A stretch of DNA of 51,015 nucleotides from a virus. Lineage: Duplodnaviria > Heunggongvirae > Uroviricota > Caudoviricetes. The notes beneath the pieces are model-generated. The model saw only the letters and a list, made by a program, of their open reading frames with translations. It did no database searches and had not been told where the DNA came from. Both the position numbers and the translations under genes were made by a program. Where the stretch lies: IMG/VR virus record IMGVR_UViG_2721755676_000003, positions 1 through 51,015 of that record; one strand, 5' to 3'. Position 1 is the stretch's first letter; each line of letters opens with the position of its first letter. Shown one piece after another: positions 1 to 51,015 of the stretch.

Positions 1-1140
1 CTACACCTTCACTTTCACCCATTCGAGACCGCGATCGTTATGATACTGCGCTGTCATCCTGTCTGATGAGTGACCTAGTAGTTGCCGGGTATTGATGCCT
101 TGCCCCTCATACAGACGCTCCGATAGAGAACGCTGCTCGTGAAAAGTCGGCATTGTTTTCCCATCCTCTACGGAAATGCCAGTACTATCGATCGCGAGTT
201 TGAAGGAGACGCTAAGGCTGTTCTCGCCAACCTGATCGCCTGCTTTCACATTACCGCTTGAGGTCACGTGATGGAGAAGCCAGGGGCTTACGACCCGATC
301 CCTGCATCGCTTGATCACCTGCGCCAGTGTAATATCCAACATCTCGCAGCGTAGCGAGAGCGGTATAGCCAGTTTCGCCCCGGTCTTTTGCTGCTCAACG
401 TGGAGATGACCGTCCCAGACATCAGAGAACTTCATTTTGGCTATATCGCCGCGCCGTTGCCCGGTGACAACTGCCAGAAGCATGGAGTTTTGGACGTAGG
501 GCGCCATATTGGAGGCCGCTTCAAATATCGCCTTCCACATCTCAAGGTTCAGTCGCGAACGACTTACCCGGACAACGACTTTTCTTGTGGCTAGCGCCGG
601 GTTATATCCCGGCTCAACTTCGCCTGCGTGCTGCGCTTCTTTGAACAGGTCAATCCAGACGCTGCGGAGCGTTTGCGCCATTCGTGCTTTGCCTCTGGCT
701 TTATATTCGTCTGTAATGGCTGCCAGCATTTTGGTAGTGACTTCCTGAATGCCAATGTCAGGCATCCTTTCAACCAGTACGTTTGTGCATGTCCTTCTTG
801 ATTTAAGCGTATTAATTTTTATCTCTTTATTGCTGAGCCGCTCCTCCTGAATTTTCAGATACCGTTCAATCCATACGCGCATTCGTATCGATTTCTTGGA
901 ATTAATCTTCTTATGGCTGACCATATCTATCAGGGCAAACGACTGGGCAGCTTCCTGCTGCGCCAGCAGACGATTCAGTTCAGTGGCGGCCAGACTGGCC
1001 GCCTCTTGATCGGTACCAAAACCAATAAACTGACCGGTTAAAGGGTGACGATATTGCCAGTAGGTTTTGCTGTTACGCTTATCCAGCTTGCAATAGAGAT
1101 TTGGTATATTAATCCGGTGATTACGAGGTCTGGCCGCCAT
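1..1140 (-). CDS. int: Phage tyrosine integrase (lambda Int family)
   Basis: 379-aa ORF; C-terminal region (LAVVTGQRRGDI...HEQRSLSERLY...LLGHSSDRMTAQYHNDRG) closely matches recalled lambda Int catalytic motifs (R..H..R..Y); terminal gene reading toward the left window edge. Confidence 0.92.
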   Translation of the reverse strand: MAARPRNHRINIPNLYCKLDKRNSKTYWQYRHPLTGQFIGFGTDQEAASLAATELNRLLAQQEAAQSFALIDMVSHKKINSKKSIRMRVWIERYLKIQEERLSNKEIKINTLKSRRTCTNVLVERMPDIGIQEVTTKMLAAITDEYKARGKARMAQTLRSVWIDLFKEAQHAGEVEPGYNPALATRKVVVRVSRSRLNLEMWKAIFEAASNMAPYVQNSMLLAVVTGQRRGDIAKMKFSDVWDGHLHVEQQKTGAKLAIPLSLRCEMLDITLAQVIKRCRDRVVSPWLLHHVTSSGNVKAGDQVGENSLSVSFKLAIDSTGISVEDGKTMPTFHEQRSLSERLYEGQGINTRQLLGHSSDRMTAQYHNDRGLEWVKVKV

Positions 1141-1378
1141 TAATTACTCTCTCCATAAGCGTCTTCACCGTTTTCGGCATGTGTGGTGGAAGAACCGGCG
1201 ATGCGAGTAAACCAATGAATTTGGCCTCTTCATCGATAACCCACCGTCGACCTTGTTTCAGCGCCCTAGGCATTGTTTGTCCTGTTTTTGCAATCCTGTG
1301 CAGTGCCGCTCTGGATGGTGGTTGCTTAAAGCCGTTTGGACCGGAAGCCCAATCCTCCAGGCTAACGAGCTGTCCCAT
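1121..1378 (-). CDS. xis: Excisionase-like small DNA-binding protein
   Basis: 85-aa ORF whose 3' end overlaps the int start by 20 nt (typical xis-int arrangement); resembles recalled lambda Xis pattern (LSLEDW...GRRWVIDEEAKF). Confidence 0.6.
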   Translation of the reverse strand: MGQLVSLEDWASGPNGFKQPPSRAALHRIAKTGQTMPRALKQGRRWVIDEEAKFIGLLASPVLPPHMPKTVKTLMERVINGGQTS

Positions 1379-5972: not shown

Positions 5973-6123
5973 TCTCACCCTCGTTTGCCTTATCGCCGGC
6001 CAGCGGAACGTTTACACCTGATGCGCGTTAATCTCTCCACCTCATCCGACTGTTCGTATGCCGTCGGCGGCTACTTCGTGGGCTCCATGCCTTGGTGGTT
6101 CGTAGTGCGTCTTGGTGATCTTG

Positions 6124-6152
6124 ATTAAATCACTGGTTTATGTTCGTGTCAA
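6124..6152 (-). promoter_or_regulatory. PL-like early leftward sigma70 promoter (-35 TTGACA, 17-nt spacer, -10 TTTAAT)
   Basis: Read on minus strand: TTGACA-cgaacataaaccagtga-TTTAAT; lies just downstream of the cargo-operon terminator and upstream of the small ORFs/recE/recT/xis/int. Confidence 0.4.
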
Positions 6153-6166
6153 TGTGTGGTTGATGT

Positions 6167-6190
6167 TAATTGTAAATCTGAGGTTTATAT
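6167..6190. promoter_or_regulatory. Putative operator (OL-like), motif TAAAT-N4-GGTTTA shared with the repressor/cro intergenic region
   Basis: taaatctgaggttta here versus taaatctgtggttta and taaatatttggttta near 8255-8319; additional ACTGGTTT half-motifs at about 6131 and 6191. Confidence 0.4.
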
Positions 6191-6302
6191 GACTGGTTTT
6201 TGTGACGTGCCTGCCGAATCGCAGGCAAAAAAAATCCCGACACAAAGGTCGAGATCGAAAAGTTTGGAGCGGCGGCTTGGAGGTGGAACAGATGTATGAG
6301 TT

Positions 6303-6328
6303 ATTAAAAACCCGGCACGGAGGCCGGG
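6303..6328 (-). terminator. Rho-independent terminator ending the repressor-downstream cargo operon
   Basis: Minus-strand reading: stem CCCGGC, loop CUCCGU, stem GCCGGG, then UUUUUAAUAA, beginning 5 nt after the stop of the 310-aa ORF. Confidence 0.55.
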
Positions 6329-6332
6329 TCGG

Positions 6333-7265
6333 TTAGTTAAGACTTTTAATCATATAGTTACGTCTAGAGATCTTTAATCTGTCATTATGAATTTCTGTAA
6401 CGCTAGCAACCATTGATACGTGTGAGCCTACTTTAAATCTTGACTGTATTTCACTAAGCATATCAATAGGATATGATGCCTTTATCTTTCCGTCAGCGTT
6501 CACCACTTCGAGTTTGCCATACATAGAGAGCAGTGATAGCTCACCTGTGATAATTTCATTCCACGGTTTGGATATTTCCGTGAAAGCTAACCTTTTTGTG
6601 AGCCTATCAATAGCTTCTTTGTTTAAGGAAACCGAACGCCTACCTTCACTTAACGGTCCGATCCAAGATAATTCTAGTGCTAAGCCATTTCGCTCGCACT
6701 CTTCTACAATGTTTTTAAGGTTATGCGTTGAATTCGACCCAATTTCAGCAAGTTTAGAAATAAATGAATCTTCGTCAGTGGCCTCTAGTACTGAGAAAAT
6801 TTCTTTTACAGCATGGCTAGAAACCGTATCAACCAGTTCACATGCCCCTGTGGAGAACGTTACGGCTAGCTTTGTTGAACCAGGCCTCAAATCAGCCAGT
6901 CTCATATCTAGAGACTGCTTTATCCCTACAGGTACCTTGCGTGAGTCTTTTCCTGATGAAATCCGATGTACGGCTTTTTGAACTAGGCCAGCAAGGTTTC
7001 CAGAAATGACAGAAAGTAATTCCAGAGGCATAGTTCCTGCGTCAACAAGAAAACCTTTGAACCTTAACTCCATGAAATCTTGGAGCGGGTGCTCTATCTC
7101 AGCAGATCTCAGTTCAGCCCTCAAATCGCTTAAATGGGAATCTAAGCTGCGCGCTAAAATTCTGTCGGCAAGAGTCATTTCATGAGCAGGGCCGATTTTG
7201 TTCATACGATCCTGAATGAACGCAATCCTTTGTTTTAATGGTATAAATTTTGGCTCTGTGCTCAT
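6333..7265 (-). CDS. Uncharacterised 310-aa protein, second gene of NTase-led operon
   Basis: 310-aa ORF; start ATG overlaps upstream gene stop (ATGA coupling); no motif I can assign; soluble. Confidence 0.6.
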   Translation of the reverse strand: MSTEPKFIPLKQRIAFIQDRMNKIGPAHEMTLADRILARSLDSHLSDLRAELRSAEIEHPLQDFMELRFKGFLVDAGTMPLELLSVISGNLAGLVQKAVHRISSGKDSRKVPVGIKQSLDMRLADLRPGSTKLAVTFSTGACELVDTVSSHAVKEIFSVLEATDEDSFISKLAEIGSNSTHNLKNIVEECERNGLALELSWIGPLSEGRRSVSLNKEAIDRLTKRLAFTEISKPWNEIITGELSLLSMYGKLEVVNADGKIKASYPIDMLSEIQSRFKVGSHVSMVASVTEIHNDRLKISRRNYMIKSLN

Positions 7266-7735
7266 ACTACAACCCTCGCTAAACCTTTTGGCGTTTCCTC
7301 TCTATCGTATCCAAAGCACCCTCGCCAATACATCCTGTCGTTTGTATAATCAGACTTTGGATCCCCTTTGAAAAGAGGTAAAAGGTCAATATGATAATTT
7401 AACTTTATAAAATCCCTATCCAAGAGACTTTCAACCTGAGGGGCAAACATTATAGGAATGGCATTTATAGCATCAAAATCCATAACAACTAGTATATCGA
7501 CATCATCGGGATCTAGTTTTTCAGTTGTAAATGAGCCGTCTACCCAAATTTCCAGAAAGCAATTAAATTGCTTATTAAGAACGCGCAAGTTGGTAATTAA
7601 CTGTATGAAATTACAGTATAGCATGGATCTACGAGTTGACTTAGGAAAACTATCAACACATATTTTTTTCAACTGGTTGTCATCAATATCATGAAAACCT
7701 GGTGTGAAGAGTGGCGGATAGCATTTCTTAGACAT
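7262..7735 (-). CDS. Small nucleotidyltransferase-fold protein (Pol-beta/minimal NTase signature)
   Basis: 157-aa ORF containing hG[GS]-x9-DxD-hhhh signature (IWVDGSFTTEKLDPDDVDILVVMDFD) typical of minimal nucleotidyltransferases. Confidence 0.5.
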   Translation of the reverse strand: MSKKCYPPLFTPGFHDIDDNQLKKICVDSFPKSTRRSMLYCNFIQLITNLRVLNKQFNCFLEIWVDGSFTTEKLDPDDVDILVVMDFDAINAIPIMFAPQVESLLDRDFIKLNYHIDLLPLFKGDPKSDYTNDRMYWRGCFGYDREETPKGLARVVV

Positions 7736-10875: not shown

Positions 10876-11712
10876 CTAATGATGATAAATACCATCGTCT
10901 AAAGGGGGACCTTCAGCAGTAACCCCCGTGATTCTACTTGGCGGTTCAAAGATGGCCTCACCAAATATCGCATCAAACTCTGCTTTGGTGACTGATAAGT
11001 ATTGCAAGATGAGCTCTAGCAGCTCTCTGTACGTATCACAATGCCATTCAATGTGAGGACATATTTGGGAGAGAACTCTGGTCTTAAAATCATCCAGATT
11101 TTTTGGGACTTCCAGCAAGTTACCAGTGTTTAATGCTTTCGACATAAACTTGTAATTGAGCATGGAGAGAACCATTACTGATACACCTTTCTCTTGCCTT
11201 AACTGATCGAACTTCTCTTGTGCTTGAAGGCTTAGCTTGGCGTATTCGCGATCTCGTTTTGAGTTGACTGGTTCGACGTACTGAAGCGGTTCGTCTGCAG
11301 CATCACCGATACGTGGACAAAAGTATCTATTCCACCAAGCCTCAAAATACCTTTTTTGGAACTCTAGGTATGTCATCCCAATAATATTGGTGTTTTGAGT
11401 GTACTGTTTAGCACCCTGCTGAAGCCCGTGCTTTGAAATAATAAATCCAATGTTAGCCCCGGTTTCATGCATTACCGTGGTGAACGAATGGACCACCGTC
11501 TGAGGTATAGAACTACCCCAGTTTTTGCATTCCACAATGTATCTGATTTTGTCCACGCTCCTAACATCTGTAGCTAGAACATCCACATTCACCGAGCCAC
11601 GCGGTGTTTCTAAATCGACCTCGACTTCTGCAAACAAGCCAACATTACGGAATATACGTTGGACCCCTGTCTGGAGGTCTTGCCAGTTTTCTGGTAATGG
11701 GTCATCGATCAC
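10876..11712 (-). CDS. Mrr-like restriction-endonuclease-fold protein (PD-(D/E)xK) with unknown C-terminal domain
   Basis: N-terminal VDVLATDVRSVDKIRYIVECKNW (D...ExK) typical of Mrr_cat nucleases; opposite strand to the replication genes. Confidence 0.5.
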   Translation of the reverse strand: MIDDPLPENWQDLQTGVQRIFRNVGLFAEVEVDLETPRGSVNVDVLATDVRSVDKIRYIVECKNWGSSIPQTVVHSFTTVMHETGANIGFIISKHGLQQGAKQYTQNTNIIGMTYLEFQKRYFEAWWNRYFCPRIGDAADEPLQYVEPVNSKRDREYAKLSLQAQEKFDQLRQEKGVSVMVLSMLNYKFMSKALNTGNLLEVPKNLDDFKTRVLSQICPHIEWHCDTYRELLELILQYLSVTKAEFDAIFGEAIFEPPSRITGVTAEGPPLDDGIYHH

Positions 11713-12046
11713 TTTTACTTTTCCTATGCACTATCCGCATGCTTTTAAGACTACTTGAAGACACAAACGTCGTCATCCACTAAAAGGTTCAAATTTGAGA
11801 TGATAGTTCGTTTCTGGTATGAAACGAACCGTTTGAAGAGCCGAGTGCTCTGCTAAGAGCCAGGAGTGGACGTTCTCAAAGCATTGCTTACATCGAGGAT
11901 GTATTAATCAACGGGGTGCAGGTCAATTGATCCATAAAAGGTTGAATGCTCTATACTAAGCACTAGTAAAAAACATTGCACAACATACACTTAAGGTTTA
12001 AATTGCTTATCACCAAAACATAAATTTAATCATAGGCTGATGGCGT

Positions 12047-13510
12047 ATGCTAAAGGTAATTAAAAAAGGTATTGGCTTCAATAAAACAGAAAAAAGATTG
12101 ATTGAATTAGCTAATAATGCCTTTATAGGTTTGTGGTCATATCCTAATGTTTATAGTGATGAGGGTTTTGCAAAAAATAAATCGGGTAAAGAAGTGTGTG
12201 ATTTATTAGTGGTTTTTGAAAATAATGTAATTTTGTTTTCTGATAAAGACATTAAGTTTAATGATGAAATTGATATCCATATTGCATGGAAAAGATGGTT
12301 TAGGAGAGCAGTAATCGAATCAGCGACTCAACTGCATGGAGCTGAAAAATTTCTAAAAGAGCAAAGTGACAGATTATTTCTTGATAAAGAGTGTAAGGAG
12401 AGGTTTCCAATAACAATTGACAATAAGATGCGCTTTTTTTTGATCGCAGTAACTAGCAATAGCGCAATTCCAGCTTTCAATTACTTTGGTCGTATCGCGG
12501 AAGGAAGTTCTGGAACTTTAGTAAATTGCTTTCCCTTTGGAATAAAGGAAAGTATGGAGCAACCTTTTACTGTTGGAGATTTGTATCCTGATAAGACATT
12601 TATCCATGTTTTAGATGAACTATCGTTAAAATTACTATTCTCTGAGCTGGATACAATTACTGACTTCGTTGACTATTTAAAAGAGAAAGAACGAGTCGTG
12701 AGGACAGGTTTTCTTGGATTAAGTCCTGGTGAGGATGACACACTGGGTGCCTACTTGATCGGGCATGGATTAATAGTAGATGAAAAGAAGGTGCCAAAAA
12801 ACTCGTTTGTTCGAATTGCAGAGCATGAATGGACTGAACTAAAAAAATCGCAATTATATGAATATTATACAGCTCTAAAAAAAGGTAGCTATTTTTGGGA
12901 TGAAACAGTACAACGTTTTTCCGATTCCATATTAAATGCAACTGTTGGTCTAGGTAAGGAAAATGACTTTCTTAGTCATGAGGAAACATTAAGACAATTA
13001 GCCTCTGAAAGCAGAGAATCAAGATATTATTTATCTAAATCATTCTTGGATAAATTCAAGCAAGTTCCTTCTGACAGAAGAAGCTCCAGAATCGTAGAGT
13101 CTTTAGATGAAAAAGGAAAGTTTTATATTTTTTTGTTTTTTCCGCGTGAAAAACATTTATCATATGAGGAATATAGAAACGAACGTTTTTCTTGCATTCA
13201 AATGTATGCGTTAACAGCTAAATATAAATACCCACAAATAAAAAAACTCATAGTCATTGCTACTGAAAGTAAAGACTCCGAAGGTCGTTCAGAGGATGTG
13301 GTATTTTGTCGATTTGATAACCCCCTTTCAAAAGGCGAACGTCTGTTTGTACAATCAGTGATGCACGAATATAGCATACTTACTGATTTCATTCCAAAAC
13401 CGAACAATAAATTAAATTTGTCACCGATAGTTAAAAGTGACAAGAAACCTGGAAGGAATGAACCTTGTTTTTGTGGATCTGGTATAAAATATAAAAAATG
13501 CCATGGATAG
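12047..13510 (+). CDS. SEC-C motif protein of unknown function (AT-rich cargo)
   Basis: 487-aa ORF ending in CFCGSGIKYKKCHG (SEC-C metal-binding motif); strongly AT-rich relative to phage backbone. Confidence 0.6.
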   Translation: MLKVIKKGIGFNKTEKRLIELANNAFIGLWSYPNVYSDEGFAKNKSGKEVCDLLVVFENNVILFSDKDIKFNDEIDIHIAWKRWFRRAVIESATQLHGAEKFLKEQSDRLFLDKECKERFPITIDNKMRFFLIAVTSNSAIPAFNYFGRIAEGSSGTLVNCFPFGIKESMEQPFTVGDLYPDKTFIHVLDELSLKLLFSELDTITDFVDYLKEKERVVRTGFLGLSPGEDDTLGAYLIGHGLIVDEKKVPKNSFVRIAEHEWTELKKSQLYEYYTALKKGSYFWDETVQRFSDSILNATVGLGKENDFLSHEETLRQLASESRESRYYLSKSFLDKFKQVPSDRRSSRIVESLDEKGKFYIFLFFPREKHLSYEEYRNERFSCIQMYALTAKYKYPQIKKLIVIATESKDSEGRSEDVVFCRFDNPLSKGERLFVQSVMHEYSILTDFIPKPNNKLNLSPIVKSDKKPGRNEPCFCGSGIKYKKCHG

Positions 13511-13955
13511 AAAATTAGCATAATTCTATTAACTCATTGCCATTATCTTGACAAAACTAAATGGAAACTTGTCATATTTATTTCTTGAAAATATTTAATT
13601 ACTGGCTGTAGCAACTTTAACTTAGTGCGGGCATAGCTATGAATCTCCGATTGTACTGGCAGGGGGCTACAACTTTAGATGACTCACTCCCATCTTCAAC
13701 AAGCTAGCTGGCTGCCTTGTGTTGCGAGGATTCGTAATGATGATGTCAGTTTTGTCCGCTTCTGGCAAGAGGCGGACGAGATGGCTAGGCTTAAGACCTG
13801 CTGAAAGCCAGGAGCTGACATCACTACAACTTTTAATGCTAACTTCACTTAAAATAATTTTGGAATTTGCACATATGGGTTATATAAGTAAATCATCGCA
13901 ATGAGTTCTATGCGATAATTTTATATTTAGTCCCCATCTTTATCGGATGGTTCAT

Positions 13956-14729
13956 CTAAGCTTTAACTCGCCTGACAAGAGTTTTACTGCAACCTATACT
14001 GAGAAGGTGGCGTCGAAGATTTTTATCAATATGACTATCCAACGTGGTAATTAAAAACACTATATCCTCAATAACCTTAACAACATCCGAGCTTGATATT
14101 TTAGTGAGGCTTACCTTTGGTCTGTCACAATTATGGATACAATCATGTCTCCTCTGAATTAGCGAAGTATATCTGTTAGTTAGCTTTTCTAACATAGATT
14201 TCCGTTTTTTTTCTTTATCCTCTTTGGATAACTTTTTGTAAGCTGTTGGAGTGGTTCCCATAAGACGATGCTTCGCTGACTTATTTATCAACCAGTCCTC
14301 CATCATCGGCTTTGTTAATATTTTGTTTTTTTCATCCATGATATGATTGAACAAATCCTTAATTTTATCGATTGAAAGTACGTTATCTTTTTCAATCAAG
14401 TCACGTGCTGCATTTCGCCATTTCCAATTCGAAGTTGTATTCTGAGCATTCACGATAGAATTTATAGGTAACTTCAATGACCTTATCTTTGGGCTTAATT
14501 TGACATTGCTGTCAATGCTTTTTGCAATTAGGATTTTTGATAACACATCTGCAAATGCATCACAAAAATATGCATCAAGTGCTCCAATCGCAATCATCCA
14601 AGAGGCTCTATATATATCATCCTTTAGAGTCGATATAGGTAATGAATCAGCATGAGCTATAAGGTCTTTTGCTCTATTAATATCCTGATTAAAATGACTT
14701 AACGCTGTGCTTGGCATATAACACCTCAA
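13956..14729 (-). CDS. HEPN-like protein (candidate abortive-infection RNase)
   Basis: 257-aa ORF with C-terminal R-x4-H motif (LIQRRHDCIHNCDRPK) in a helical, lysine-rich protein; AT-rich. Confidence 0.4.
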   Translation of the reverse strand: MRCYMPSTALSHFNQDINRAKDLIAHADSLPISTLKDDIYRASWMIAIGALDAYFCDAFADVLSKILIAKSIDSNVKLSPKIRSLKLPINSIVNAQNTTSNWKWRNAARDLIEKDNVLSIDKIKDLFNHIMDEKNKILTKPMMEDWLINKSAKHRLMGTTPTAYKKLSKEDKEKKRKSMLEKLTNRYTSLIQRRHDCIHNCDRPKVSLTKISSSDVVKVIEDIVFLITTLDSHIDKNLRRHLLSIGCSKTLVRRVKA

Positions 14730-15040
14730 AATAAATGATTTATATGGTTAATTGGAAATGCAAAACTTAAATTTTAGTTTATACCGTTTGTTGCCAGAAT
14801 ACGATATATTCACAGATTCTAGACCATTAACATTGGCACTACAGCCAGATAATGAGTTTGAACGTACACCGTAGTATACTTTCTGATCTGCCCACCCCAA
14901 AAAAATTAGTACTATCTGGATTACCACAGTCCGCTCTTGTCACCCAAATGTTATTTTACCTTAATGACATTAGATTTCATTTGGATCAGATTGCCGCAAC
15001 TATCAGTGTGCGGCAAGTAGCTGAAGCATTCATAGAGTAT

Positions 15041-16285
15041 TTATGGGTCAAGGAGGGATTTAAACTGAGATATGGGATAGTCATATCGTTCGTTATAGAA
15101 TGCCGCAAGCTTGCAGTATTCTGCTAGGTGAGCATCTGGCCTGTATGGGACAATCGCTCCTTCAATCGATAGCTCAATACTATTAGTGACAATCAACATC
15201 AAGGCATGATCTTTAGTAAATAGTTGTTCTGAAAGTAAACGATATTTATTTTTAGGCTCGGAAATAGTTTTGAATGATTCGAACGTGTCATTAATAAACT
15301 GAAGTGCCAATGCTCCAGGTCGTTTTCCTGTCAGTTGTTTTTTTAACGCCCGCTTAGATACTTTCTCAACCTCTTTCCAAATTTGTACATCACCTGCGGA
15401 TACGACCCGAATTCCCTTTAATCGATGCTCAGAGTCATGGCAGGCCACTAACGCTGCTGTGGAGCCATGGAGTGTTTGTGCTGCATTGAAGACTACATTC
15501 TCATCAGTTTTATCTCCCAATAATGGGCAAAATTCTTCAACAACAGAAAACTTTTCGCTGTGTATATCGTTGCCTTGAGTTTCAATCTCGTCTACTAGGC
15601 GAGCCATAAATTCTTTGAAGCTTTTATCGTTCTTAGGCACAGGTTCCGTCAAAATGATGGTCAAGATACTTGCGAATCCTTCCTTTGCAGTGAGAAGTCT
15701 GTCGAGCGAGATTTTTTCCAGCAAAGCACCAATCAAGCGATGCCCATCTGCAAGACTAACAGCAAAACCTTTATCACCTGCGAAGGATTTGCACTCAAGC
15801 TCAAATGGAGGAAGCCCTTGAGGTGGGTAGACTAGAAGGTCAAAGGTCTCCTCGCCTTTACTTTCCTCTGGCCATTCAATGGAGCACCCCCTGGAGATTA
15901 GTGTTTTGGCCATATATAACTCGTACTGCAAAGCGCGCATGTCGCTGGCAAGCTTGAACGCACCCTCGAAACGTTTTTTGAGTTCCCTGGGGCCTGGTTC
16001 ACCTCTTTCCACTGCTTCACACAGTTCCACCACTCGCTGCACAAATAACATTGTCTGGAACATTGTATTCCATTCGTATCCCGCATTTAATGCATACTGA
16101 TTTCTATCCCAAAACGTCAAACCGAATGCTACTGAGTTTTCTAATTCTTCCTGTCCACCACGTCCAGCAAATTGATTTGAAAGTAACTTTATGTCCTGAA
16201 CGACCTTCAGCCAAGGCTTTAAAGGGAAAAGCTTGACTAAACGGTTATAAATATCAGGGAAGCTAAGCATAATGAGGGGCATCAA
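15041..16285 (-). CDS. Hypothetical 414-aa protein with PD-(D/E)xK-like motif
   Basis: ETFDLLVYPPQGLPPFELECKSF (D...E-x-K) suggests a nuclease fold; otherwise unrecognised. Confidence 0.45.
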   Translation of the reverse strand: MMPLIMLSFPDIYNRLVKLFPLKPWLKVVQDIKLLSNQFAGRGGQEELENSVAFGLTFWDRNQYALNAGYEWNTMFQTMLFVQRVVELCEAVERGEPGPRELKKRFEGAFKLASDMRALQYELYMAKTLISRGCSIEWPEESKGEETFDLLVYPPQGLPPFELECKSFAGDKGFAVSLADGHRLIGALLEKISLDRLLTAKEGFASILTIILTEPVPKNDKSFKEFMARLVDEIETQGNDIHSEKFSVVEEFCPLLGDKTDENVVFNAAQTLHGSTAALVACHDSEHRLKGIRVVSAGDVQIWKEVEKVSKRALKKQLTGKRPGALALQFINDTFESFKTISEPKNKYRLLSEQLFTKDHALMLIVTNSIELSIEGAIVPYRPDAHLAEYCKLAAFYNERYDYPISQFKSLLDP

Positions 16286-16790
16286 ATATTATCTCCTTAG
16301 GTCAGCGCTTAAACAAAACTCCATCTTTAATACAACGTTTAATCTGCAAGAGCATACTACAGTGAATATCTGGGCGTCATATGCCCAATGCCCGAAAGCA
16401 TAATATGTATGCCTTTTAGCTGAAACTGGCCTTCACTCTGCAGACCTGAATACGTCACAAGCAAGGACCAGAGTAGTATCGGCATTGGTTGTGAAATCTT
16501 TAATTCACATGATGAGAGCATTATGCAACGGGTACTTTAACGATGATACCGAAGCGAGAACCTTTCTTGCAGGTTCTCGCTATAGGGCTTGGTAATAGCA
16601 TGTTGCTTGTCAGTCATGCCACATACCCAAACGTTCATTCTTGCTTCCGCTTTAAAACACTCAATCCACAGAAACTACAAGTCTTCACGCTGGAAGTAAC
16701 CTGTTGTTTGTTTGGGGGGCACATAATCTCAGTAAGTTACATTGTGATCTCATAAAACGTTGCAAAATCCGTTACATAAGTTTATAAAAG

Positions 16791-44646: not shown

Positions 44647-45912
44647 ATGCTTTATAACACCGGCACCATCGCAATTAACGGAAATACCGCAACCGGTACT
44701 GGCACAAACTGGACGGCACCAGTCAGCCAGGTTCGCGCTGGCCAGACGATTATCGTGATGTCTAACCCGGTGCAGCTGTTCCAGATTTCATCTGTGGACA
44801 GCGCCACGTCAATGACGGTTACGCCTGCCGCTTCCCCGGCGCTGAGCGGCCAGAAGTACGGCATTCTGATATCAGACAATATCTCTGTAGACAGCCTGGC
44901 GCAGGCGATGTCGCAGCTCATCAAAGAGTATGATGAGAATATCGGCGCCTGGGAGACGTTCGCTACCACATCCGCAAATCAGACTATCACCGTTACTATC
45001 AACGGATCTTCCGTAAATATTCCGGGCATAGGTGCACTTGCCAGAAAGGGGGCGAATAGCGATATCACGGAGCTGAAAGGGCTCACTACTGCGCTTTCTA
45101 TTGCACAGGGTGGCACCGGGGCAACGAAGGCAGAAGACGCTCGCACAAACCTCGGTTTAGGAAGTAGCGCGACGAAGGACGTCGGAACTGCCTCCGGGAA
45201 TGTCATGCAAGTTGGGGCGGGCGGTTTTTTGGTTAGTACGCCTACATTGATAGCAGAAAACAACAGCCGCTATCCTTCAAGCTTTATGCGATCTGGTGGA
45301 GGGAGTGGGAAAATTGGATTCGGCTCTGGTATTTATTGCTCCTACGATGACTCCATTTGCTTTCATCTCCATATTCAGGGTAATGGTGAACTCCATTATA
45401 GATATTTGAATGCTGGCCTTATTACCTATGACTACGTTGCTTACTCTACAGGAAACACCACAAAGGCGAGCGATGGCACCCTAAAAGCTGCGTCCCCGGT
45501 TGCCCGTATCGTAGCGAGCCAGGAAGCCTGCCAGCGCGTTGATATAGCGGAGGATGGATTCGCATGGTGCGGCTGTGGAACGGCGAACTCTGAGGCGGAG
45601 GGAATAACTCTTTCTCGCCTCGACGTAGGTGTTTACGTGATCGCGGGTTCGGCAGGTCTGGCGTCAGAGGGATGGCAACTGCTGCCGCCAATGGACCCTG
45701 GCGGAATGGGAGAGCTGGGTGTAGTTGAGGCAGAGCAAACCGAGAACGGCGAGCTGACAATCCGCCTGTTTAAGCGCAGATACATGCTGAGCGATGACGG
45801 AGAGATGATCAAAACCAAAGGAGAGCTGATGGATGTTCCGGCGAACAGCTGGATCGATGTTCGCCTGGATATGCCCGCAGATTCACTGTTTAACCAGCGA
45901 ATGAGTCAGTAG
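44647..45912 (+). CDS. Side tail fibre protein (constant N-terminal part plus currently fused variable C-terminal segment)
   Basis: 421-aa ORF, RBS GAGGT; Gly/Thr/Ser-rich fibre repeats; internal gix-like recombination site at about 45140-45165. Confidence 0.7.
   Translation: MLYNTGTIAINGNTATGTGTNWTAPVSQVRAGQTIIVMSNPVQLFQISSVDSATSMTVTPAASPALSGQKYGILISDNISVDSLAQAMSQLIKEYDENIGAWETFATTSANQTITVTINGSSVNIPGIGALARKGANSDITELKGLTTALSIAQGGTGATKAEDARTNLGLGSSATKDVGTASGNVMQVGAGGFLVSTPTLIAENNSRYPSSFMRSGGGSGKIGFGSGIYCSYDDSICFHLHIQGNGELHYRYLNAGLITYDYVAYSTGNTTKASDGTLKAASPVARIVASQEACQRVDIAEDGFAWCGCGTANSEAEGITLSRLDVGVYVIAGSAGLASEGWQLLPPMDPGGMGELGVVEAEQTENGELTIRLFKRRYMLSDDGEMIKTKGELMDVPANSWIDVRLDMPADSLFNQRMSQ
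45140..45193. repeat. Left inverted repeat with gix/hix-like crossover site (..CACAAACC TC GGTTTAGGAAGT..)
   Basis: Matches recalled gix consensus AAACC-TC-GGTTTACAGGAA; inverted partner at about 46539-46580; inner arms about 18/20 identical (gcgacgaaggacgtcggaac versus gcaacgaaggacgttggaac). Confidence 0.5.
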
Positions 45913-46578
45913 GCTGAGGCTTAGTGTTTCCCTCTAATGCGCTGACGCGGGTTGCCAGCGCTTTGATTGCCGCCAGCCCATCGAGCAACATTGGTGTCTG
46001 ATCGAGATGCAGCAGACCGCCAATTTGCTTTACATATTCTGGGTCGATTTTCTCTATTTGCTGAGAGATAACCCCGCGCCGTGGGGGTTGAGTTTCATCA
46101 TCTTTAAAGGTGAAGTGCTTGAATTCCATCCGGCAGATATTCAGCAATGCCTCTTCCAGATCGAGGTCATCACCGATGTTTTTCATAGTTCTGTCGGACA
46201 CCGCCGAAGTTAAAATTTCTTTCCACGGTGCCCAGGCATTGGTATTAAAACCTCTGTAAAAGAACCGCCCGGCATCTGTTTGCGTGGCATAAGGCAAGAT
46301 AAATTGAGTCGATGCACCGCTGCTGCCTACAATTCGGACATAGTTTTGAATATACCCGTATCCGCTTGCCGCTGGTGGGTTTACAGCGGTAGTGAAATTG
46401 ATGAGGTTAGGAAAAACACCAGGGTTCCGCGCATCATTCAAATTGATGGTGTTTGAAGGTAAAGCCGAGTCAATCTGGAAGAACCTGTAGGCGTCCACCG
46501 GCCCCCCAAGTCCACCGACAACCTGAACGTTTCCTTCGCTCGTTCCAACGTCCTTCGTTGCTGATGTTCCTAAACCTA
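45890..46578 (-). other. Alternative tail-fibre C-terminal segment (S'v-like), promoterless, within invertible segment
   Basis: Minus-strand ORF whose 5' end begins at the right inverted repeat with ...LGLGTSATKDVGTSEGNV..., paralleling the plus-strand ...LGLGSSATKDVGTASGNV...; the ORF-track N-terminal extension is antisense to the invertase remnant. Confidence 0.5.
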
Positions 46579-46580
46579 GA
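46539..46580. repeat. Right inverted repeat / gix-like site
   Basis: Reverse complement of ..GTTCCTAAACC TA GAGGGAGTTG.. gives GGTTTAGGAAC plus the shared inner arm. Confidence 0.45.
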
Positions 46581-46792
46581 GGGAGTTGATTGTGGAGCGC
46601 ACCCGGGCAGGTCTGGCTGCAGCTCGTGAGAAATGGCGAATCGGCGGCAGGCGTCCGAAGCTTACCCAGGAACAATGGGATCAGGCGGGCCGACTTATTG
46701 CGAACGGCCTGGACAGGAATCAGGTAGCGATAATTTATGACGTTGCTGTATGCACGCTTTATAAAAAATTCCCTCCTTCAAAAAAGGCTTAA
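46580..46792 (+). pseudogene. DNA invertase (Gin/Pin/Hin serine recombinase) remnant: C-terminal HTH domain only
   Basis: RELIVERTRAGLAAAREKWRIGGRRPKLTQEQWDQAGRLIANGLDRNQVAIIYDVAVCTLYKKFP matches the C-terminal roughly 70 aa of Gin/Pin; the frame opens exactly at the right gix-like site; no N-terminal catalytic domain upstream. Confidence 0.6.
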
Positions 46793-46929
46793 ATCTGCTC
46801 ACATAGAGTTTAGGCAATAAAATTTACAAAACTCGTAATCCGAAGCGACATAGAAACTTATAAACGAAACGGCGAAGCTTTAAACAATCAGGATAGGTCC
46901 TCTGTCTTGCATGCATACCCAAATGAAAC

Positions 46930-46949
46930 TACTGTATATAAAGACAGTA
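46930..46949. promoter_or_regulatory. LexA (SOS) box upstream of umuD
   Basis: TACTGTATATAAAGACAGTA (CTGT-N8-ACAG) about 15 nt upstream of the umuD ATG. Confidence 0.7.
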
Positions 46950-46964
46950 CAAAAGGTGTGCACT

Positions 46965-47384
46965 ATGGAATTTATCAGGCCTGCGGAACTGCGTGAAATT
47001 CTCGCTCTCCCGCTTTTCAGTGACTTAGTTCAGTGTGGTTTCCCAAGTCCAGCAGCTGATTACGTTGAACAACGTATCGATCTCAATGAGTTACTTGTCG
47101 CTCACCCGAGCTCAACGTATTTCGTCAAAGCCGCGGGCGATTCTATGATCGAAGCCGGGATCAGCGACGGTGATCTGCTGGTAGTGGACAGTTCCAGGAC
47201 TGCTGAGCATGGTGACATTGTCATCGCTGCGGTGGAAGGGGAGTTCACTGTTAAACGCCTGCAGCTGCGCCCGACCGTGCAACTCAATCCTATGAACAGC
47301 GCCTACAGTCCGATTGTTGTTGGCAGTGAAGACACACTGGACGTGTTTGGCGTTGTTACTTTCATCGTTAAATCTGCGAGCTGA
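46965..47384 (+). CDS. umuD: UmuD (Pol V accessory subunit, LexA-like S24 self-cleaving peptidase)
   Basis: [72 protein letters not shown]... near-identical to recalled E. coli UmuD; includes the Cys-Gly cleavage site and Ser/Lys dyad. Confidence 0.9.
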
Positions 47385-47386
47385 AC

Positions 47387-48655
47387 ATGTTTGCGCTCTG
47401 TGATGTGAATTCGTTTTACGCATCATGCGAGACGGTGTTTCGGCCCGATTTGAGAGGGCGGCCAGTAGTTGTTCTCTCGAATAATGACGGCTGCGTAATC
47501 GCGCGCAGCGCCGAGGCCAAAGCCGCCGGAATTACCATGGGAGAGCCTTTCTTTAAGCAAAAGGATCTATTCCGGCGCGCTGGTGTTGTTTGCTTCAGCA
47601 GTAACTACGAGCTGTACGCAGACATGTCGAACCGGGTAATGACGACGCTTGAGGAAATGAGCCCCCGCGTCGAAATTTACAGTATCGATGAAGCTTTTTG
47701 CGACCTGACTGGCGTTCGCAACTGCCGGGACCTGACTGACTTCGGCAAAGAAATTCGTTCTACGGTTCTAAAGCGTACGCACCTGACGGTTGGGGTTGGA
47801 ATTGCGCAGACAAAAACGCTCGCTAAGCTGGCCAATCACGCCGCGAAGAAGTGGCAGAGGCAGACGGGTGGAGTTGTTGATTTGTCCAATATCGATCGCC
47901 AGCGTCGGTTATTGGCAATTGTGCCTGTGGAGGATGTCTGGGGCGTCGGCAGGCGCATCAGTAAGAAGCTAAACGCCATGGGCATCAAAACGGCTCTGGA
48001 TCTCTCAGAACAAAGCACATGGATTATCCGTAAACATTTTAACGTGGTACTCGAGCGAACGGTCCGGGAGTTGCGCGGAGAGCCTTGTCTTGAGCTGGAG
48101 GAGTTTGCGCCGGCAAAGCAGGAAATCGTCTGCAGCCGATCGTTCGGCGAGCGCGTCACGGACTATGAGCAGATGCGTCAGGCTATCTGCAGCTATGCGG
48201 CGCGTGGCGCCGAAAAGCTTCGCGGCGAGCATCAGTATTGCCGTTTTATCTCGGCGTTCGTTAAGACGTCACCTTTTGCCCTGAATGAGCCATATTACGG
48301 TAATAGTGCGTCCATGAAGCTTCTTACTCCCACTCAGGATTCCCGCGACATCATCAACGCCGCGGTAAAGTGCCTGAACAAAATCTGGAAGGACGGCCAC
48401 CGCTATCAAAAAGCAGGAATCATGCTTGGGGATTTTTTCAGCCATGGTGTGGCTCAGCTCAACTTGTTCGATGAGAACGCGCCGCGCGAAGACAGCGCGC
48501 AACTGATGCAGATCCTTGACCAGCTCAATGCCAAAGGAGGAAAGGGCACACTCTACTTTGCAGGGCAGGGAATTCAGCAACAATGGCAGATGAAGCGAGA
48601 AATGCTTTCTCCGCGGTATACGACCCGCTTCCAGGATTTATTAATTGTTAAATAA
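47387..48655 (+). CDS. umuC: UmuC (Y-family translesion DNA polymerase V catalytic subunit)
   Basis: [41 protein letters not shown]... canonical UmuC N-terminus; 422 aa. Confidence 0.92.
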
Positions 48656-48723
48656 ATGCAGGACATTATGGTCAAAATAAAGTATCTTATTCAGGCACTT
48701 ATAAATACTTAAATGGAATTGAT

Positions 48724-49131
48724 ATGTTAAAACCTATTCTCGCATTAGCAGTTCTTACCTTATCTGGGTGTGCAATTATCCAAGAGCCTCCAAAACATGG
48801 CACTCCTGACGCTGTATATACGACTAAGAGCGATGCAAAAAGCGTTGCATTATGCATTGCTGATGTCTTTGCAGATTACGACCCTTACATCAAAGCTCGC
48901 TATAAAGAAGAATTCTGGGGTTATAAAATTAATTATTCCGCCGGGCAATATGGCGAAGCTGAAATTTACAAGAAAAATAACGTTACCACTGTGAATTATT
49001 TTGGTCAGAATAATTCAGACAAGAAAATGGTAAAGCATCTTAAAGACGGCATCCAAAAATGTGTAAATAAGGTGTACGACATGTCTCCAGTGGGTGGTAA
49101 GCAGCCAGATGGAAGCGTAAAACTCTGGTAA
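48724..49131 (+). CDS. Lipoprotein of unknown function
   Basis: Signal peptide plus lipobox (LAVLTLSGC); AT-rich. Confidence 0.55.
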   Translation: MLKPILALAVLTLSGCAIIQEPPKHGTPDAVYTTKSDAKSVALCIADVFADYDPYIKARYKEEFWGYKINYSAGQYGEAEIYKKNNVTTVNYFGQNNSDKKMVKHLKDGIQKCVNKVYDMSPVGGKQPDGSVKLW

Positions 49132-49145
49132 TATCTGTCAGGATA

Positions 49146-49817
49146 TCACTGAATATTATCAATCAATTCAGCACCCTGATTTTTTGGATTATCAACGGCA
49201 CGCGACACTGCGTGCCAGATAAACTTGTCGGCGTCCACTGTGCCGTCGGCCGCTATCTCTTCAGCTTCTTTCCCGCCTATATCCTGCCGCATCCATTCGC
49301 GAGCTGCTTCCGGCGACAGAACCAGTGGCCGGCGGTCGTGAATTTCGACCAGTCCTTTGTCAGCTGCAGACGTCACTATCAGAAAACCTTCTGCTTCATC
49401 GCCGCGCTCAAACGGTGTGCTGCCGATCGCCGCCATGAAAATCGGCTGTCCGTCGGCGCGGTGAATGAAGTAGGGCTGCTTCTTGTCACCTTCCTTCTTC
49501 CATTCGAACCATCCATCCGCAAAGCAGATCGCCCGGCCATGCTGCCAGAGGGGCTTAAACATTCGACTGGTGGCCGCAGTCTCGACACGCGCGTTAATCA
49601 GTGGTGGTTTATCCCACCACCCGGGCGCGTAACCCCAGAAAACCGGATCAAGATGCAGTTGCTCGTCGCGTTCGCTCAGCAACAGAACTTTGGTACCGGG
49701 CGCGACGTTGTACCGGCCAATCGGCTCAGGGTCATATGCTATGTCGCGATCGGCTTCATCGGCCAGGTAAGCAAGATATTCTTCACGGGTTTGGGCTTGT
49801 GCAAAACGTCCACACAT
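49146..49817 (-). CDS. SOS-response-associated peptidase (SRAP, YedK/HMCES family)
   Basis: Begins MCGRF (catalytic Cys2), 223 aa; family hallmarks recalled. Confidence 0.8.
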   Translation of the reverse strand: MCGRFAQAQTREEYLAYLADEADRDIAYDPEPIGRYNVAPGTKVLLLSERDEQLHLDPVFWGYAPGWWDKPPLINARVETAATSRMFKPLWQHGRAICFADGWFEWKKEGDKKQPYFIHRADGQPIFMAAIGSTPFERGDEAEGFLIVTSAADKGLVEIHDRRPLVLSPEAAREWMRQDIGGKEAEEIAADGTVDADKFIWHAVSRAVDNPKNQGAELIDNIQ

Positions 49818-50194
49818 AGAAACCTCCAGTCAGTAAGACTGAAAGTATAGGGCAGGGAGAAAAAACAGGTGCGCACCGAAACATCATGATTTTGAAACAG
49901 GGGCATGATGATGGAAGTCAGAGTGCCGGTAAAGCGGGTCGTTGAGAAACTGGAAAGAGCTACGCAAAGTTAAAGTGTTAGGCTATTTACGTTCCGAAGC
50001 GGTTATCGTTTATTAATTGAGCGAAATACGAATATTTAGAGGGAGTGATGGGGCATTTTTGAGAGATAACCTTCCCCAAAACGATACGCAACCTACTGAA
50101 TAGCATAAGGTTCTAGTAAGGGTGAAAATGGTGCAAATCAACGCCTCGATTATAGGTTAACTTATTGTATATAAAGAATAAAAACGGTAGTTGA

Positions 50195-50452
50195 ATAGTA
50201 TGCTTCGCCCATATTTTTGGTGGCGGATATGCTGCAGGTTATTACGCTTATCTGTGGACGCAAATGTTGGCCGATGATGGTTACCAGTGGTTTGTTGAGC
50301 AGGGCGGATTAACGCGTGAAAATGGGCAGCGTTTTCGCGAGGCGATCCTTTCCAGAGGTAACAGCGAAGATCTGGAACGCCTGTATCGACAATGGCGCGG
50401 TAAGGCTCCTCAAATTATGCCGATGCTGCAACATCGTGGCTTGAACATATAA
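50195..50452 (+). pseudogene. dcp: Orphan 3' fragment of dcp (peptidyl-dipeptidase, M3 family)
   Basis: Frame open only from about 50195, encoding ...HIFGGGYAAGYYAYLWTQMLADDGYQWFVEQGGLTRENGQRFREAILSRGNSEDLERLYRQWRGKAP..., the conserved M3-peptidase C-terminus; preceded by an in-frame stop and AT-rich non-coding DNA. Confidence 0.65.
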
Positions 50453-50496
50453 ACACCACCAATGGCTGTCCTGGAGATATCGCCAGGCCAGCCTGG

Positions 50497-51015
50497 TTAT
50501 AGCAGTAATTGCAGCAGCTGGGCGAGGGCAAACCTCACCGCTAAAGCTAATACCGTTTCGCAGTCGCCAGCAAAATGCATAACCGCAGTATAGGTCTGGC
50601 CTTTAATATGCCACGCGAACCAGACGGTACCCGCTGGCGTACCATCTTCACCGCCCTCCGGTCCGCCGTAGCCGGTAATGGCAATACTGACATCAGCTTC
50701 CGCACGCTCTATGGCACCGGTTGCCATTTCTGCTGCCACTTTCTCACTCACCGCAGAATATCGTTCAAGAGATTGCTGGCTTACGCTGAGGATTTTCATC
50801 TTTGCCTGATCGGTGAAAGTAACAAAGCCTGCACCGTAAAATTTGGGTGTATCTTCAGCTGCACACAGGGCGCTAGCCAACTTACCGCCGGTGCATGATT
50901 CGGCGGTAGTTAAGCGTAATTGATCCGCGATAAGTCTTTGACTCAACGCGGATGTCAGGTTTTCAATAGTGTCGGTATCTGCAAGTTGTACAATTTTATC
51001 GCTATTAATGTTCAC
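50497..51015 (-). CDS. CinA C-terminal-domain / PncC-like protein (YdeJ-like); start at or beyond window edge
   Basis: ATAESCTGG motif and overall CinA-C pattern; ORF reaches the window end with a GTG at the last codon, so the 5' end may be truncated. Confidence 0.65.
   Translation of the reverse strand: MNINSDKIVQLADTDTIENLTSALSQRLIADQLRLTTAESCTGGKLASALCAAEDTPKFYGAGFVTFTDQAKMKILSVSQQSLERYSAVSEKVAAEMATGAIERAEADVSIAITGYGGPEGGEDGTPAGTVWFAWHIKGQTYTAVMHFAGDCETVLALAVRFALAQLLQLLL

What the first reader, a model, noticed from the sequence alone, without database searches (positions are those of the whole stretch)
49818..50452. Orphan dcp 3' fragment at the right edge suggests integration into the 3' end of dcp, with attR near 50195
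Seen: only the last about 85 codons of an M3-peptidase (dcp) reading frame are present (50195-50452), preceded by an in-frame stop and AT-rich non-coding DNA; a ydeJ/CinA-like gene follows convergently. Inference: the element integrated into the dcp 3' end and supplies a replacement 3' end at the int-proximal attL, left of the window, displacing the original 3' end to attR. This would make the whole window up to about 50195 prophage, including umuDC.
Basis: inference. Interest (0 to 1): 0.5.

Follow-up and report, generated by a model that had tools for sequence, protein, structure and literature searches.

The report
Prophage inserted in dcp gene end
The stray tail end of the dcp peptidase gene at the right edge of the window is the scar (attR) left by a 50.6-kb lambda-like prophage that inserted inside dcp and brought its own substitute gene end. 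This is the same textbook trick phage 21 and e14 use at the icd gene, here at a site that seems not to have been described.

Summary
Observation confirmed and interpretation supported, with small corrections. Window 50204-50452 is the native last 82 codons plus stop of E. coli dcp. It is 99.9% identical to strain GE3 and is followed convergently by ydeJ. Contigs carrying the same integrase show a full-length 681-aa dcp ending 150 bp beyond the int stop, just left of the window. That dcp is host-like up to nt 1799 and then switches to a diverged, phage-borne 3' end (72 of 238 nt differ, 13 of 79 aa differ). The crossover lies in TTYGCCCATAT (window 50204-50214; perfect core GCCCATAT, 50207-50214), not at 50195. 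A related 49.5-kb metagenomic phage contig has the uninterrupted attP in the order tail fibre, umuDC, P arm, core, dcp' (aa 600-680 only), terminator, three arm sites, int. So umuDC is phage cargo. The integrase is 49% identical to phage 21 Int. It uses the same arm-site consensus (TTCCCCAAAA) and the same module layout, but targets dcp instead of icd. Close relatives of this integrase sit next to dcp in at least eight enterobacterial genera. In 5415 of 5417 complete E. coli genomes the site is empty. This is a new member of a known kind, of modest interest.

The parts
1..1140 (-). Tyrosine integrase (379 aa), lambda/phage-21 type with an N-terminal arm-binding domain. The window starts at its stop codon. 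attL lies 389-396 nt further left, outside the window.
   Evidence: Pfam Arm-DNA-bind_1 E=2e-22 and Phage_integrase E=3e-14. 49% identical to phage 21 Int over the full length, with the RGD, HxxR, GH and Y motifs aligned. 88% identical to the int of the Klebsiella prophage record MK422450.
1121..1378 (-). Excisionase (85 aa), overlapping the int start
   Evidence: Pfam Exc E=1.6e-6. Called as a gene in L001-L004.
46932..46947 (+). LexA (SOS) box CTGTATATAAAGACAG, just upstream of the likely true umuD start at 46965
   Evidence: Exact match to CTGT-N8-ACAG. The UmuD homologues in L060 and XJ55 are 139 aa and start at MEF....
46965..48655 (+). umuD-umuC (Pol V-type) cargo genes between the tail-fibre genes and attP, equivalent to the lambda 'b region'
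   Evidence: Pfam Peptidase_S24, IMS, IMS_C and DUF4113. The related phage contig L060 has the same position, tail fibre, umuD, umuC, attP.
48724..49131 (+). Small lipoprotein-like cargo ORF (135 aa), function unknown
   Evidence: PHROG 914 (unknown function) E=1e-11 and no Pfam hit. The N-terminus ...LTLSGC is lipobox-like (read from the sequence).
49146..49817 (-). SOS-response-associated peptidase (SRAP/YedK-like) cargo gene, the last gene of the prophage
   Evidence: Pfam SRAP E=1e-51. A umuDC-hyp-SRAP module sits at the chromosome-proximal end of another element in E. coli XJ55.
49818..49968 (-). Upstream (promoter/leader) region that travels with the SRAP gene
   Evidence: Homology to SRAP loci in other E. 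coli genomes (84-89%) extends to window 49968.
50071..50203 (+). P arm of attP (phage side of attR), AT-rich (36% GC), with one arm-type Int site TTCCCCAAAA at 50072-50081
   Evidence: Contiguous 85.9% alignment with the uninterrupted attP of phage contig L060 starts at window 50071 and runs across the core. TTCCCCAAAA occurs exactly once in the 51 kb. The phage 21 record annotates the same consensus, YYTTCCCCAAAA.
50204..50214 (+). attR crossover region TTCGCCCATAT. The perfect attL/attR/attB/attP core GCCCATAT is at 50207-50214, which is dcp codons 600-603 (F-A-H-I).
   Evidence: Three- and four-way alignments of attB (GE3), attL (L001), attR (window) and attP (L060).
50204..50452 (+). Displaced native 3' end of E. 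coli dcp (82 codons plus stop), a non-functional orphan
   Evidence: 99.9% identical to GE3 dcp and matches 5,416 of 5,426 complete genomes from 50204 on. Peptidase_M3 profile positions 376-456 of 457.
50497..51015 (-). ydeJ (CinA-family; RefSeq '2-oxo-tetronate isomerase'), the chromosomal right flank

Best explanation
The window is a complete lambdoid siphovirus prophage of about 50.6 kb from core to core. It integrated by Int-mediated site-specific recombination inside the E. coli dcp gene, at codons 600-603 (TTY GCC CAT AT). That spot encodes the start of the highly conserved M3-peptidase motif FAHIFGGGYAAGYY. The phage attP carries, next to int, a diverged copy of the last 79 dcp codons with its own stop and terminator. 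After integration, attL therefore reconstitutes a full-length chimeric 681-aa dcp. The native last 82 codons are displaced about 50.6 kb away to attR (window 50204-50452), where they lie next to ydeJ as a dead fragment. The attP layout is: P arm with one arm-type site (TTCCCCAAAA, about 130 nt left of the core), core GCCCATAT, dcp' (238 nt), terminator hairpin, three arm-type sites spaced 12 nt apart, then 55 nt to the int stop. This is the layout of the phage 21 attP at icd, with the same arm-site consensus. Shown here: the junctions, the empty site, the contiguous attP in a relative, and the int-dcp linkage across genera. Inferred: that the TTCCCCAAAA repeats are the Int arm-binding sites, that strand exchange is confined to GCCCATAT, and that the chimeric Dcp is active.
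For: A full-length dcp lies 150 bp beyond the int stop in contigs carrying the identical int, and L001 is identical to the window over the 11,140 nt they share. attL dcp equals native dcp up to nt 1799 apart from 2 SNPs, then 72 of 238 nt differ, 50 of them at third codon positions, and 13 of 79 aa differ. The attR fragment is 99.9% E. coli-like from 50204. The site is empty in GE3 and in 5415 of 5417 complete E. coli genomes. The attP reconstructed from the left side of attR plus the right side of attL aligns as one 1,674-nt HSP (85.9%) across the junction with phage contig L060. That contig holds only dcp aa 600-680 between int and umuC. All 9 enterobacterial genome loci with an int or int remnant at 84% identity or more, and every IMG/VR locus with an int at 87% identity or more that extends far enough, have dcp about 150 bp past int. 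Four relatives at 48-57% identity that extend past int do not. The spacer with three TTTTGGGGAR-type repeats plus a hairpin is conserved in all 11 loci of this lineage examined (L001, L006 and L009-L020), and the Kosakonia and Phytobacter diazotrophicus loci carry a compensatory stem change, CCGGGT...ACCCGG. The phage 21 record annotates the same consensus and the order int, P1P2P3, terminator, icd'. The Int has Arm-DNA-bind_1 and Phage_integrase domains. Structural and cargo genes fill the window up to attR.
Against: No experimental evidence for excision or integration, and no attP from this exact phage; the attP comes from a relative whose int is 94% identical. attL and attR differ at dcp nt 1800 (T versus C), so the exact exchange points cannot be fixed within the 11-bp region. 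The P' arm sites lie about 300 nt from the core, far more than in lambda, although phage 21 shows about 230-260 nt. Activity of the chimeric Dcp is untested.
Confidence: 0.94

Rival explanations
1. Roles reversed. The phage integrated in the dcp-ydeJ intergenic region, the fragment at 50204-50452 is the phage-borne copy, and the attL-side gene is entirely native.
For: Both copies are in frame and of equal length, so position alone does not say which is native.
Against: The attR copy is 99.9% identical to E. coli dcp and is continuous with ydeJ as in the empty locus. The attL 3' end is only 69.7% identical to E. coli at nt level. No match to it was found in any of the 5,426 complete E. coli genomes. 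It differs by 1 aa over the displayed stretch from the dcp end next to an int remnant in Enterobacter pasteurii. It is physically linked to int in the free attP of L060.
Confidence: 0.01
2. Composite insertion. The prophage proper ends after the tail-fibre genes, and umuDC, the lipoprotein-like ORF and SRAP are a separate island that inserted in tandem, so that attR belongs to a different element.
For: The cargo segment left of 50071 is not conserved with L060, which lacks SRAP and the lipoprotein-like ORF. A similar umuDC-hyp-SRAP block occurs at another chromosomal site in E. coli XJ55, so it behaves as an exchangeable module.
Against: No second integrase, transposase or extra repeat was found between 44 kb and 50.2 kb. 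In L060, umuDC lies between tail fibre and attP in one phage contig. The P arm at 50071-50214 matches the int-linked attP. A moron module exchanged within the b region is still part of the prophage.
Confidence: 0.04
3. A duplication, rearrangement or assembly artefact unrelated to site-specific recombination.
For: None specific. The window alone cannot exclude it.
Against: The same junctions occur in independent assemblies: 14 contigs carry the identical int. The breakpoint is precise with no loss of host bases. The same int-dcp arrangement recurs in at least eight genera.
Confidence: 0.01

Closest known systems
Phage 21 and the e14 element, integration into the 3' end of icd (isocitrate dehydrogenase)
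   Same: Lambda-type Int with an arm-binding domain, 49% identical to phage 21 Int. Insertion inside the 3' part of a conserved housekeeping ORF, with the phage supplying substitute terminal codons and leaving a pseudo 3' fragment at the other end (e14: 163 bp of icd, PMC6379469; phage 21: last 53 aa of ICDH). Same order: int, three tandem arm sites, terminator, gene 3' mimic, core, P arm with one more arm site. Same arm consensus YYTTCCCCAAAA. The cores even resemble each other: icd CTGCGCC-ATATGGG versus dcp CTTCGCCCATATCTT (read; post hoc, not tested).
   Different: The target gene is dcp, not icd. The mimic is longer (238 nt / 79 codons versus about 165 nt). It is much more diverged from the host copy here (70% nt versus 99% aa for phage 21). 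Half of the Int residues differ.
Phage lambda Int/attP (attB between gal and bio)
   Same: Same integrase family (49-50% identity). Same prophage order: attL, int, xis ... tail genes, b-region cargo, attR. Same arm/core bipartite site logic.
   Different: Lambda integrates in an intergenic site and carries no host-gene mimic. Its arm-site sequence differs. Its P' arm is about 90 nt, not about 330 nt (lambda details from established knowledge, not tested here).
GenBank record MK422450.1, 'Klebsiella phage ST13-OXA48phi12.4' (a prophage prediction)
   Same: Int 88% identical, with the same xis, recT, recE and int-150 bp-dcp arrangement in K. pneumoniae. Its dcp end is 85% identical at nt level to the phage-borne end here.
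   Different: Different host genus and different structural and cargo genes. The record runs on into about 13 kb of chromosome (dcp, ydfG, ... dmsA) and lacks the attR end, so the attachment site is not annotated as such.

Membership tests
Lambda-type tyrosine integrase (arm-binding heterobivalent Int) | N-terminal arm-type DNA-binding domain plus a C-terminal tyrosine-recombinase catalytic domain | tested here: met
   PF09003 Arm-DNA-bind_1 residues 1-70, E=2e-22. PF00589 residues 202-368, E=3e-14.
Lambda-type tyrosine integrase (arm-binding heterobivalent Int) | Catalytic motifs R...HxxR...H...Y conserved | tested here: met
   In the BLASTP alignment with phage 21 Int, TGQRRGD, HEQRSL, LLGH and ...QY align with the corresponding motifs. 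Residue roles come from established knowledge of the family.
Lambda-type tyrosine integrase (arm-binding heterobivalent Int) | Repeated arm-type sites on both sides of a short core in attP | tested here: met
   CTTCCCCAAAAC at -140. TTCCCCAAAA, CTCCAAAA and TCCCCAAAA at about +302 to +335 relative to the core. Conserved in 11 loci. Same consensus as annotated for phage 21. Actual Int binding is not testable here.
Phage 21/e14-type integration that replaces the 3' end of the target ORF | Target ORF stays full length at attL through phage-supplied terminal codons | tested here: met
   The 681-aa Peptidase_M3 ORF at attL has the same length as native. The switch of ancestry is at nt 1800-1809.
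Phage 21/e14-type integration that replaces the 3' end of the target ORF | The native 3' end is displaced to attR as an orphan fragment, and the empty site is restored by joining the left of attL to the right of attR | tested here: met
   Window 50204-50452 is the native end. GE3 attB equals the left of attL plus the right of attR, with no bases lost.
Phage 21/e14-type integration that replaces the 3' end of the target ORF | The gene mimic is part of attP in the unintegrated phage genome | tested here: met
   L060 carries only dcp aa 600-680 between int and umuC, collinear with the reconstructed attP. It is a relative (int 94%), not the identical phage.
Phage 21/e14-type integration that replaces the 3' end of the target ORF | The target is icd | tested here: not met
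   The target is dcp. It is therefore a sibling of the phage 21/e14 system, not a member of the icd-integrating group.
Dcp (peptidyl-dipeptidase, MEROPS M3) - status of the fragment | Complete catalytic domain including the HExxH zinc site | tested here: not met
   The fragment covers only profile positions 376-456 of 457. It has no start or promoter context and an in-frame TGA at 50192, so it is a pseudogene remnant.
Functional, inducible prophage | Excision and virion production | not testable with these tools
   All modules are present: int, xis, recET, repressor, O/P, Q, terminase, portal, capsid, tape measure, J, fibres. Activity is unknown.

The most novel reading that the evidence does not exclude
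dcp codons 600-603 are a previously undescribed attB, used by a distinct branch of phage-21-like integrases. The branch kept the phage 21 arm-site code (TTCCCCAAAA) and module layout but changed core specificity from icd to the invariant M3-peptidase motif FAHIF. The lineage ranges over at least eight enterobacterial genera and, through prophage decay, leaves foreign dcp C-termini fixed in host genes. Together with phage 21 it would give a natural pair for dissecting how core specificity evolves while arm recognition stays constant.
Probability: 0.5. Interest if true: 0.35.

Novelty: new member of a known kind. Interest (0 to 1): 0.22.

Why it matters
The result fixes the right boundary of the prophage at 50214 and places umuDC, the lipoprotein-like ORF and SRAP inside a mobile, probably SOS-linked phage cargo region. 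That matters for reading the rest of the window. It adds dcp to the list of protein-coding attB sites. It also shows that the lysogen makes a chimeric Dcp with 13 foreign C-terminal residues. The phage 21 (icd) and this (dcp) integration modules share arm sites and layout but differ in core, a convenient natural comparison for integrase retargeting. The mechanism itself is textbook, so it would not surprise a specialist.

Tried and rejected
The junction, the int gene and the phage-type dcp end were searched in 5,426 complete E. coli genomes. No match was found for the junction, the int gene or the phage-type dcp end, so the lysogen could not be read there. A tblastn of the chimeric C-terminus against 50,697 phage records gave only the over-extended Klebsiella prophage record and unrelated oligopeptidase A genes of jumbo phages, with no isolated phage carrying a dcp' attP. 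Five literature searches combining dcp or dipeptidyl carboxypeptidase with prophage, integration site, attB, integrase or icd found no paper naming dcp as an attachment site; the fifth search, for phage 21 attP arm-type sites, led to the e14/icd review used as a citation. The library does not cover subscription journals, so this is weak evidence of absence. The Rfam scan and the promoter/terminator scan of 48600-51015 gave nothing above background in the non-coding stretch, and no LexA box with one mismatch or fewer lies upstream of SRAP. NG86 dS between the phage-borne and native ends was saturated, so no dN/dS ratio could be given; codon-position counts are reported instead. I considered and rejected the idea that the 62-aa ATG ORF inside the fragment (50264-50452) is a gene. 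It is simply the dcp frame.

Full report
**1. The observation**

Reading 49000-51015 and translating 50150-50455 shows an in-frame TGA at 50192-50194. After it comes IVCFAHIFGGGYAAGYYAYLWTQMLADDGYQWFVEQGG...LQHRGLNI*, with the stop at 50450-50452. Pfam places these residues at positions 376-456 of the 457-position Peptidase_M3 profile (E=7e-25).

Megablast of 49800-51015 against 5,426 complete E. coli genomes matches dcp plus ydeJ in 5,416 of them. The match always starts at window 50204, or at 50207 in strains with another base at dcp nt 1800. The best identity is 99.9%, to strain GE3. No genome matches the 404 nt to the left.

So the fragment is real. It is the native E. coli dcp 3' end (82 codons plus stop) and begins at 50204, not 50195. 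The three 'codons' at 50195-50203 are foreign DNA that happens to be in frame. The preceding 386 nt are non-coding, with 40.7% GC overall and 33-36% in the last ~100-130 nt. The gene at 50497-51015 (-) is ydeJ, a CinA-family gene.

**2. What lies left of the window**

The window begins exactly at the stop codon of a 379-aa integrase at 1-1140 on the minus strand. Looking up that exact protein gave 14 contigs. L001 is a 176-kb Logan contig and is identical to the window over the 11,140 nt they share. L002 comes from assembly GCA_029676985.1.

Both contigs show a full-length 681-aa Peptidase_M3 gene convergent with int, ending 150 bp beyond the int stop. It is followed by ydfG, rspR and ydfZ, which is the normal E. 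coli neighbourhood of dcp (compare GE3).

**3. The junctions**

The attL dcp was aligned with GE3 dcp (attB) and with the window (attR):
- attL equals attB from nt 1 to 1799 apart from two SNPs.
- The two differ at nt 1800 (T versus C) and share GCCCATAT at nt 1801-1808.
- From nt 1809 to 2046 they diverge, with 72 of 238 nt different (69.7% identity).
- attR is unrelated to attB up to nt 1797 and identical from nt 1798 onward.

The crossover therefore lies within TTYGCCCATAT (window 50204-50214), most simply within the 8-bp perfect core at 50207-50214. The T/C difference at nt 1800 is most simply explained if the host allele has T there, as in the strains whose match starts at 50207, and the phage has C. 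A heteroduplex origin cannot be excluded.

No host base is lost or duplicated beyond the core. Core-to-core length is about 50.6 kb.

**4. Which copy is the phage's**

The attR copy is E. coli-like (99.9%). The attL 3' end gave no match in any of the 5,426 complete E. coli genomes. It is 85% identical at nt level to the dcp end next to the int of a K. pneumoniae prophage. Over the displayed C-terminal stretch it differs by one residue from the dcp end next to an int remnant in Enterobacter pasteurii.

Fifty of the 72 differences fall at third codon positions, and only 13 of 79 residues differ. The phage-borne segment is therefore a genuine, selectively maintained coding sequence derived from a non-Escherichia dcp. 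The chimeric gene keeps the native length.

**5. Direct evidence for attP**

Among 41 IMG/VR loci with relatives of the int, every one with an int at 87% identity or more that extends far enough beyond int has dcp there.

One locus is different. L060 (IMGVR_UViG_3300011913_000003) is a 49.5-kb metagenomic contig in which int lies internally. Only dcp residues 600-680 follow int. After them come, on the other strand, a small ORF, umuC, umuD and a tail-fibre gene.

An attP was reconstructed from the left side of attR (window up to 50214) and the right side of attL. It aligns with L060 as a single 1,674-nt HSP at 85.9% identity, straight across the junction. The alignment starts at window 50071.

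This shows two things. The segment 50071-50214 and the dcp'-spacer-int segment are contiguous in the unintegrated phage. And umuDC occupies the slot between the tail fibres and attP, the position of the lambda b region.

**6. Anatomy of the site, and comparison with phage 21**

The Int has the lambda arm-binding domain and the catalytic domain. It is 49% identical to phage 21 Int and to lambda Int.

The annotated phage 21 genome (OL657228) places 'attP ... 3 subsites P1P2P3; consensus YYTTCCCCAAAA' directly after the int stop. A terminator follows, then an icd' pseudogene encoding the last 53 aa of ICDH. A fourth copy of the motif lies about 125 nt beyond the core in the P arm.

The element here has the same plan. 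After the int stop come 55 nt, then TCCCCAAAA, CTCCAAAA and TTCCCCAAAA at 12-nt spacing, then a GC-rich hairpin followed by a T run, then the dcp' stop codon. In the window, the only exact TTCCCCAAAA in 51 kb lies at 50072-50081, about 130 nt left of the core.

The spacer is conserved in all 11 loci of this lineage examined, from eight genera. The Kosakonia and Phytobacter diazotrophicus loci carry a compensatory change in the hairpin stem. That these repeats bind the Int N-domain is an inference from the phage 21 annotation and from the conserved N-terminus, not a test.

The remainder of the non-coding stretch divides in two. The segment 49818-49968 travels with the SRAP gene in other E. coli genomes. 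The segment 49969-50070 is an unconserved linker.

**7. Generality**

In one-genome-per-species contigs, all nine enterobacterial loci with an int or int remnant at 84% identity or more have dcp about 150 bp downstream. They come from Enterobacter (two species), Pseudescherichia, Phytobacter (two species), Kosakonia, Leclercia, Klebsiella michiganensis and Huaxiibacter. Three relatives at 48-50% identity, in Vibrio, Grimontia and Zobellella, do not. K. pneumoniae shows the same arrangement.

Four of the loci are decayed remnants. The Leclercia one retains a frameshifted second dcp 3' fragment about 2 kb away.

In E. coli the element is rare. The site is uninterrupted in 5415 of 5417 complete genomes that match.

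**8. Is the whole window prophage?**

Yes, up to 50214. The modules run in this order:
- int, xis, recT and recE
- repressor, ydaS/T-like genes and replication O/P
- antiterminator Q
- terminase, portal, head, tape measure, J and side fibres
- the cargo block of umuD, umuC, a lipoprotein-like ORF and SRAP

No second recombinase was found near the right end. A similar umuDC-hyp-SRAP block at the chromosome-proximal end of another element, next to yciB in E. coli XJ55, shows that the block is an exchangeable moron module.

**9. Comparison, novelty and verdict**

The mechanism is the one established for e14 and phage 21 at icd. There the prophage supplies the terminal icd codons and leaves a 163-bp icd' fragment (PMC6379469; phage 21 site in icd, PMC12803456).

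This element is not a member of the icd-integrating group, because the target differs. It is a sibling with the same architecture and arm-site code.

No paper in the searchable library names dcp as an attachment site. No sequenced free phage in the INPHARED set carries a dcp' attP. The only public phage record with this arrangement is a prophage prediction that overruns into the chromosome. These searches are incomplete, so 'undescribed' is held at about 50%.

This is a new member of a known kind. Interest is low to modest.

Noticed in passing
window 46911-47384, LexA box at 46932-46947: A perfect LexA box, CTGTATATAAAGACAG, lies inside the longest umuD ORF. The real start is probably the ATG at 46965 (MEFIRPAEL..., 139 aa, as in L060 and XJ55). 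The phage-borne umuDC would then be SOS-regulated.
   Followed up: partly
window 6333-7735 (-): Two overlapping genes next to the repressor match the PADLOC candidate defence pair PDC-M63B (E=9e-44) and PDC-M63A (E=9e-40; Pfam DUF6932). This is a candidate anti-phage system carried by the prophage.
   Followed up: partly
window about 11700-16300: A low-GC island (34-36% GC against 50% for the window) sits between the replication genes and the late genes. It holds a 487-aa protein with only a C-terminal SEC-C motif and two ORFs (257 and 414 aa, minus strand) with no Pfam or PADLOC match. An Mrr_cat nuclease-domain gene lies beside it at 10876-11712 (-). Probably accessory or defence cargo.
   Followed up: partly
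window 44647-46675; inverted repeat arms 45151-45188 and 46542-46579: The side tail-fibre gene (421 aa, +) faces a 261-aa tail-fibre C-terminal ORF on the opposite strand. A 38-nt inverted repeat (79% complementary) sits inside both. This resembles an invertible host-range segment of the Mu G, P1 C or e14 P type, but no invertase gene was seen; umuD follows directly.
   Followed up: no
L008 (E. coli XJ55, NZ_CP098229.1) 4558-7644: A umuD-umuC-hypothetical-SRAP block (SRAP 87% identical at nt level) lies at the end of another inserted element, directly beside chromosomal yciB. The same cargo block therefore recurs at att-proximal ends of different elements.
   Followed up: partly
L017 (Leclercia MAG) 804-3378; also L015, L019, L020: These are decayed remnants of dcp-integrating prophages. 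Truncated int pieces (25-212 aa) still lie next to a full-length dcp. In Leclercia a frameshifted second dcp 3' fragment lies about 2 kb away, with a 344-aa membrane protein (function not tested) between. This would mean phage-derived dcp ends become fixed in host genes.
   Followed up: partly
L021 (phage 21) about 2890-2925 versus window 50198-50220: The phage 21 core in icd (CTGCTGCGCCATATGGGC) and the dcp core (ATGCTTCGCCCATATCTTC) share GCT-N-CGCC(C)ATAT. This may reflect related core-binding specificity of the two integrases. It is a post hoc observation with no statistics.
   Followed up: no
L006/L007 (GenBank MK422450.1): The record 'Klebsiella phage ST13-OXA48phi12.4, complete genome' includes about 13 kb of K. 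pneumoniae chromosome beyond int (dcp, ydfG, ... dmsA) and starts inside the tail genes. It is a mis-delimited prophage prediction rather than a complete phage genome.
   Followed up: yes
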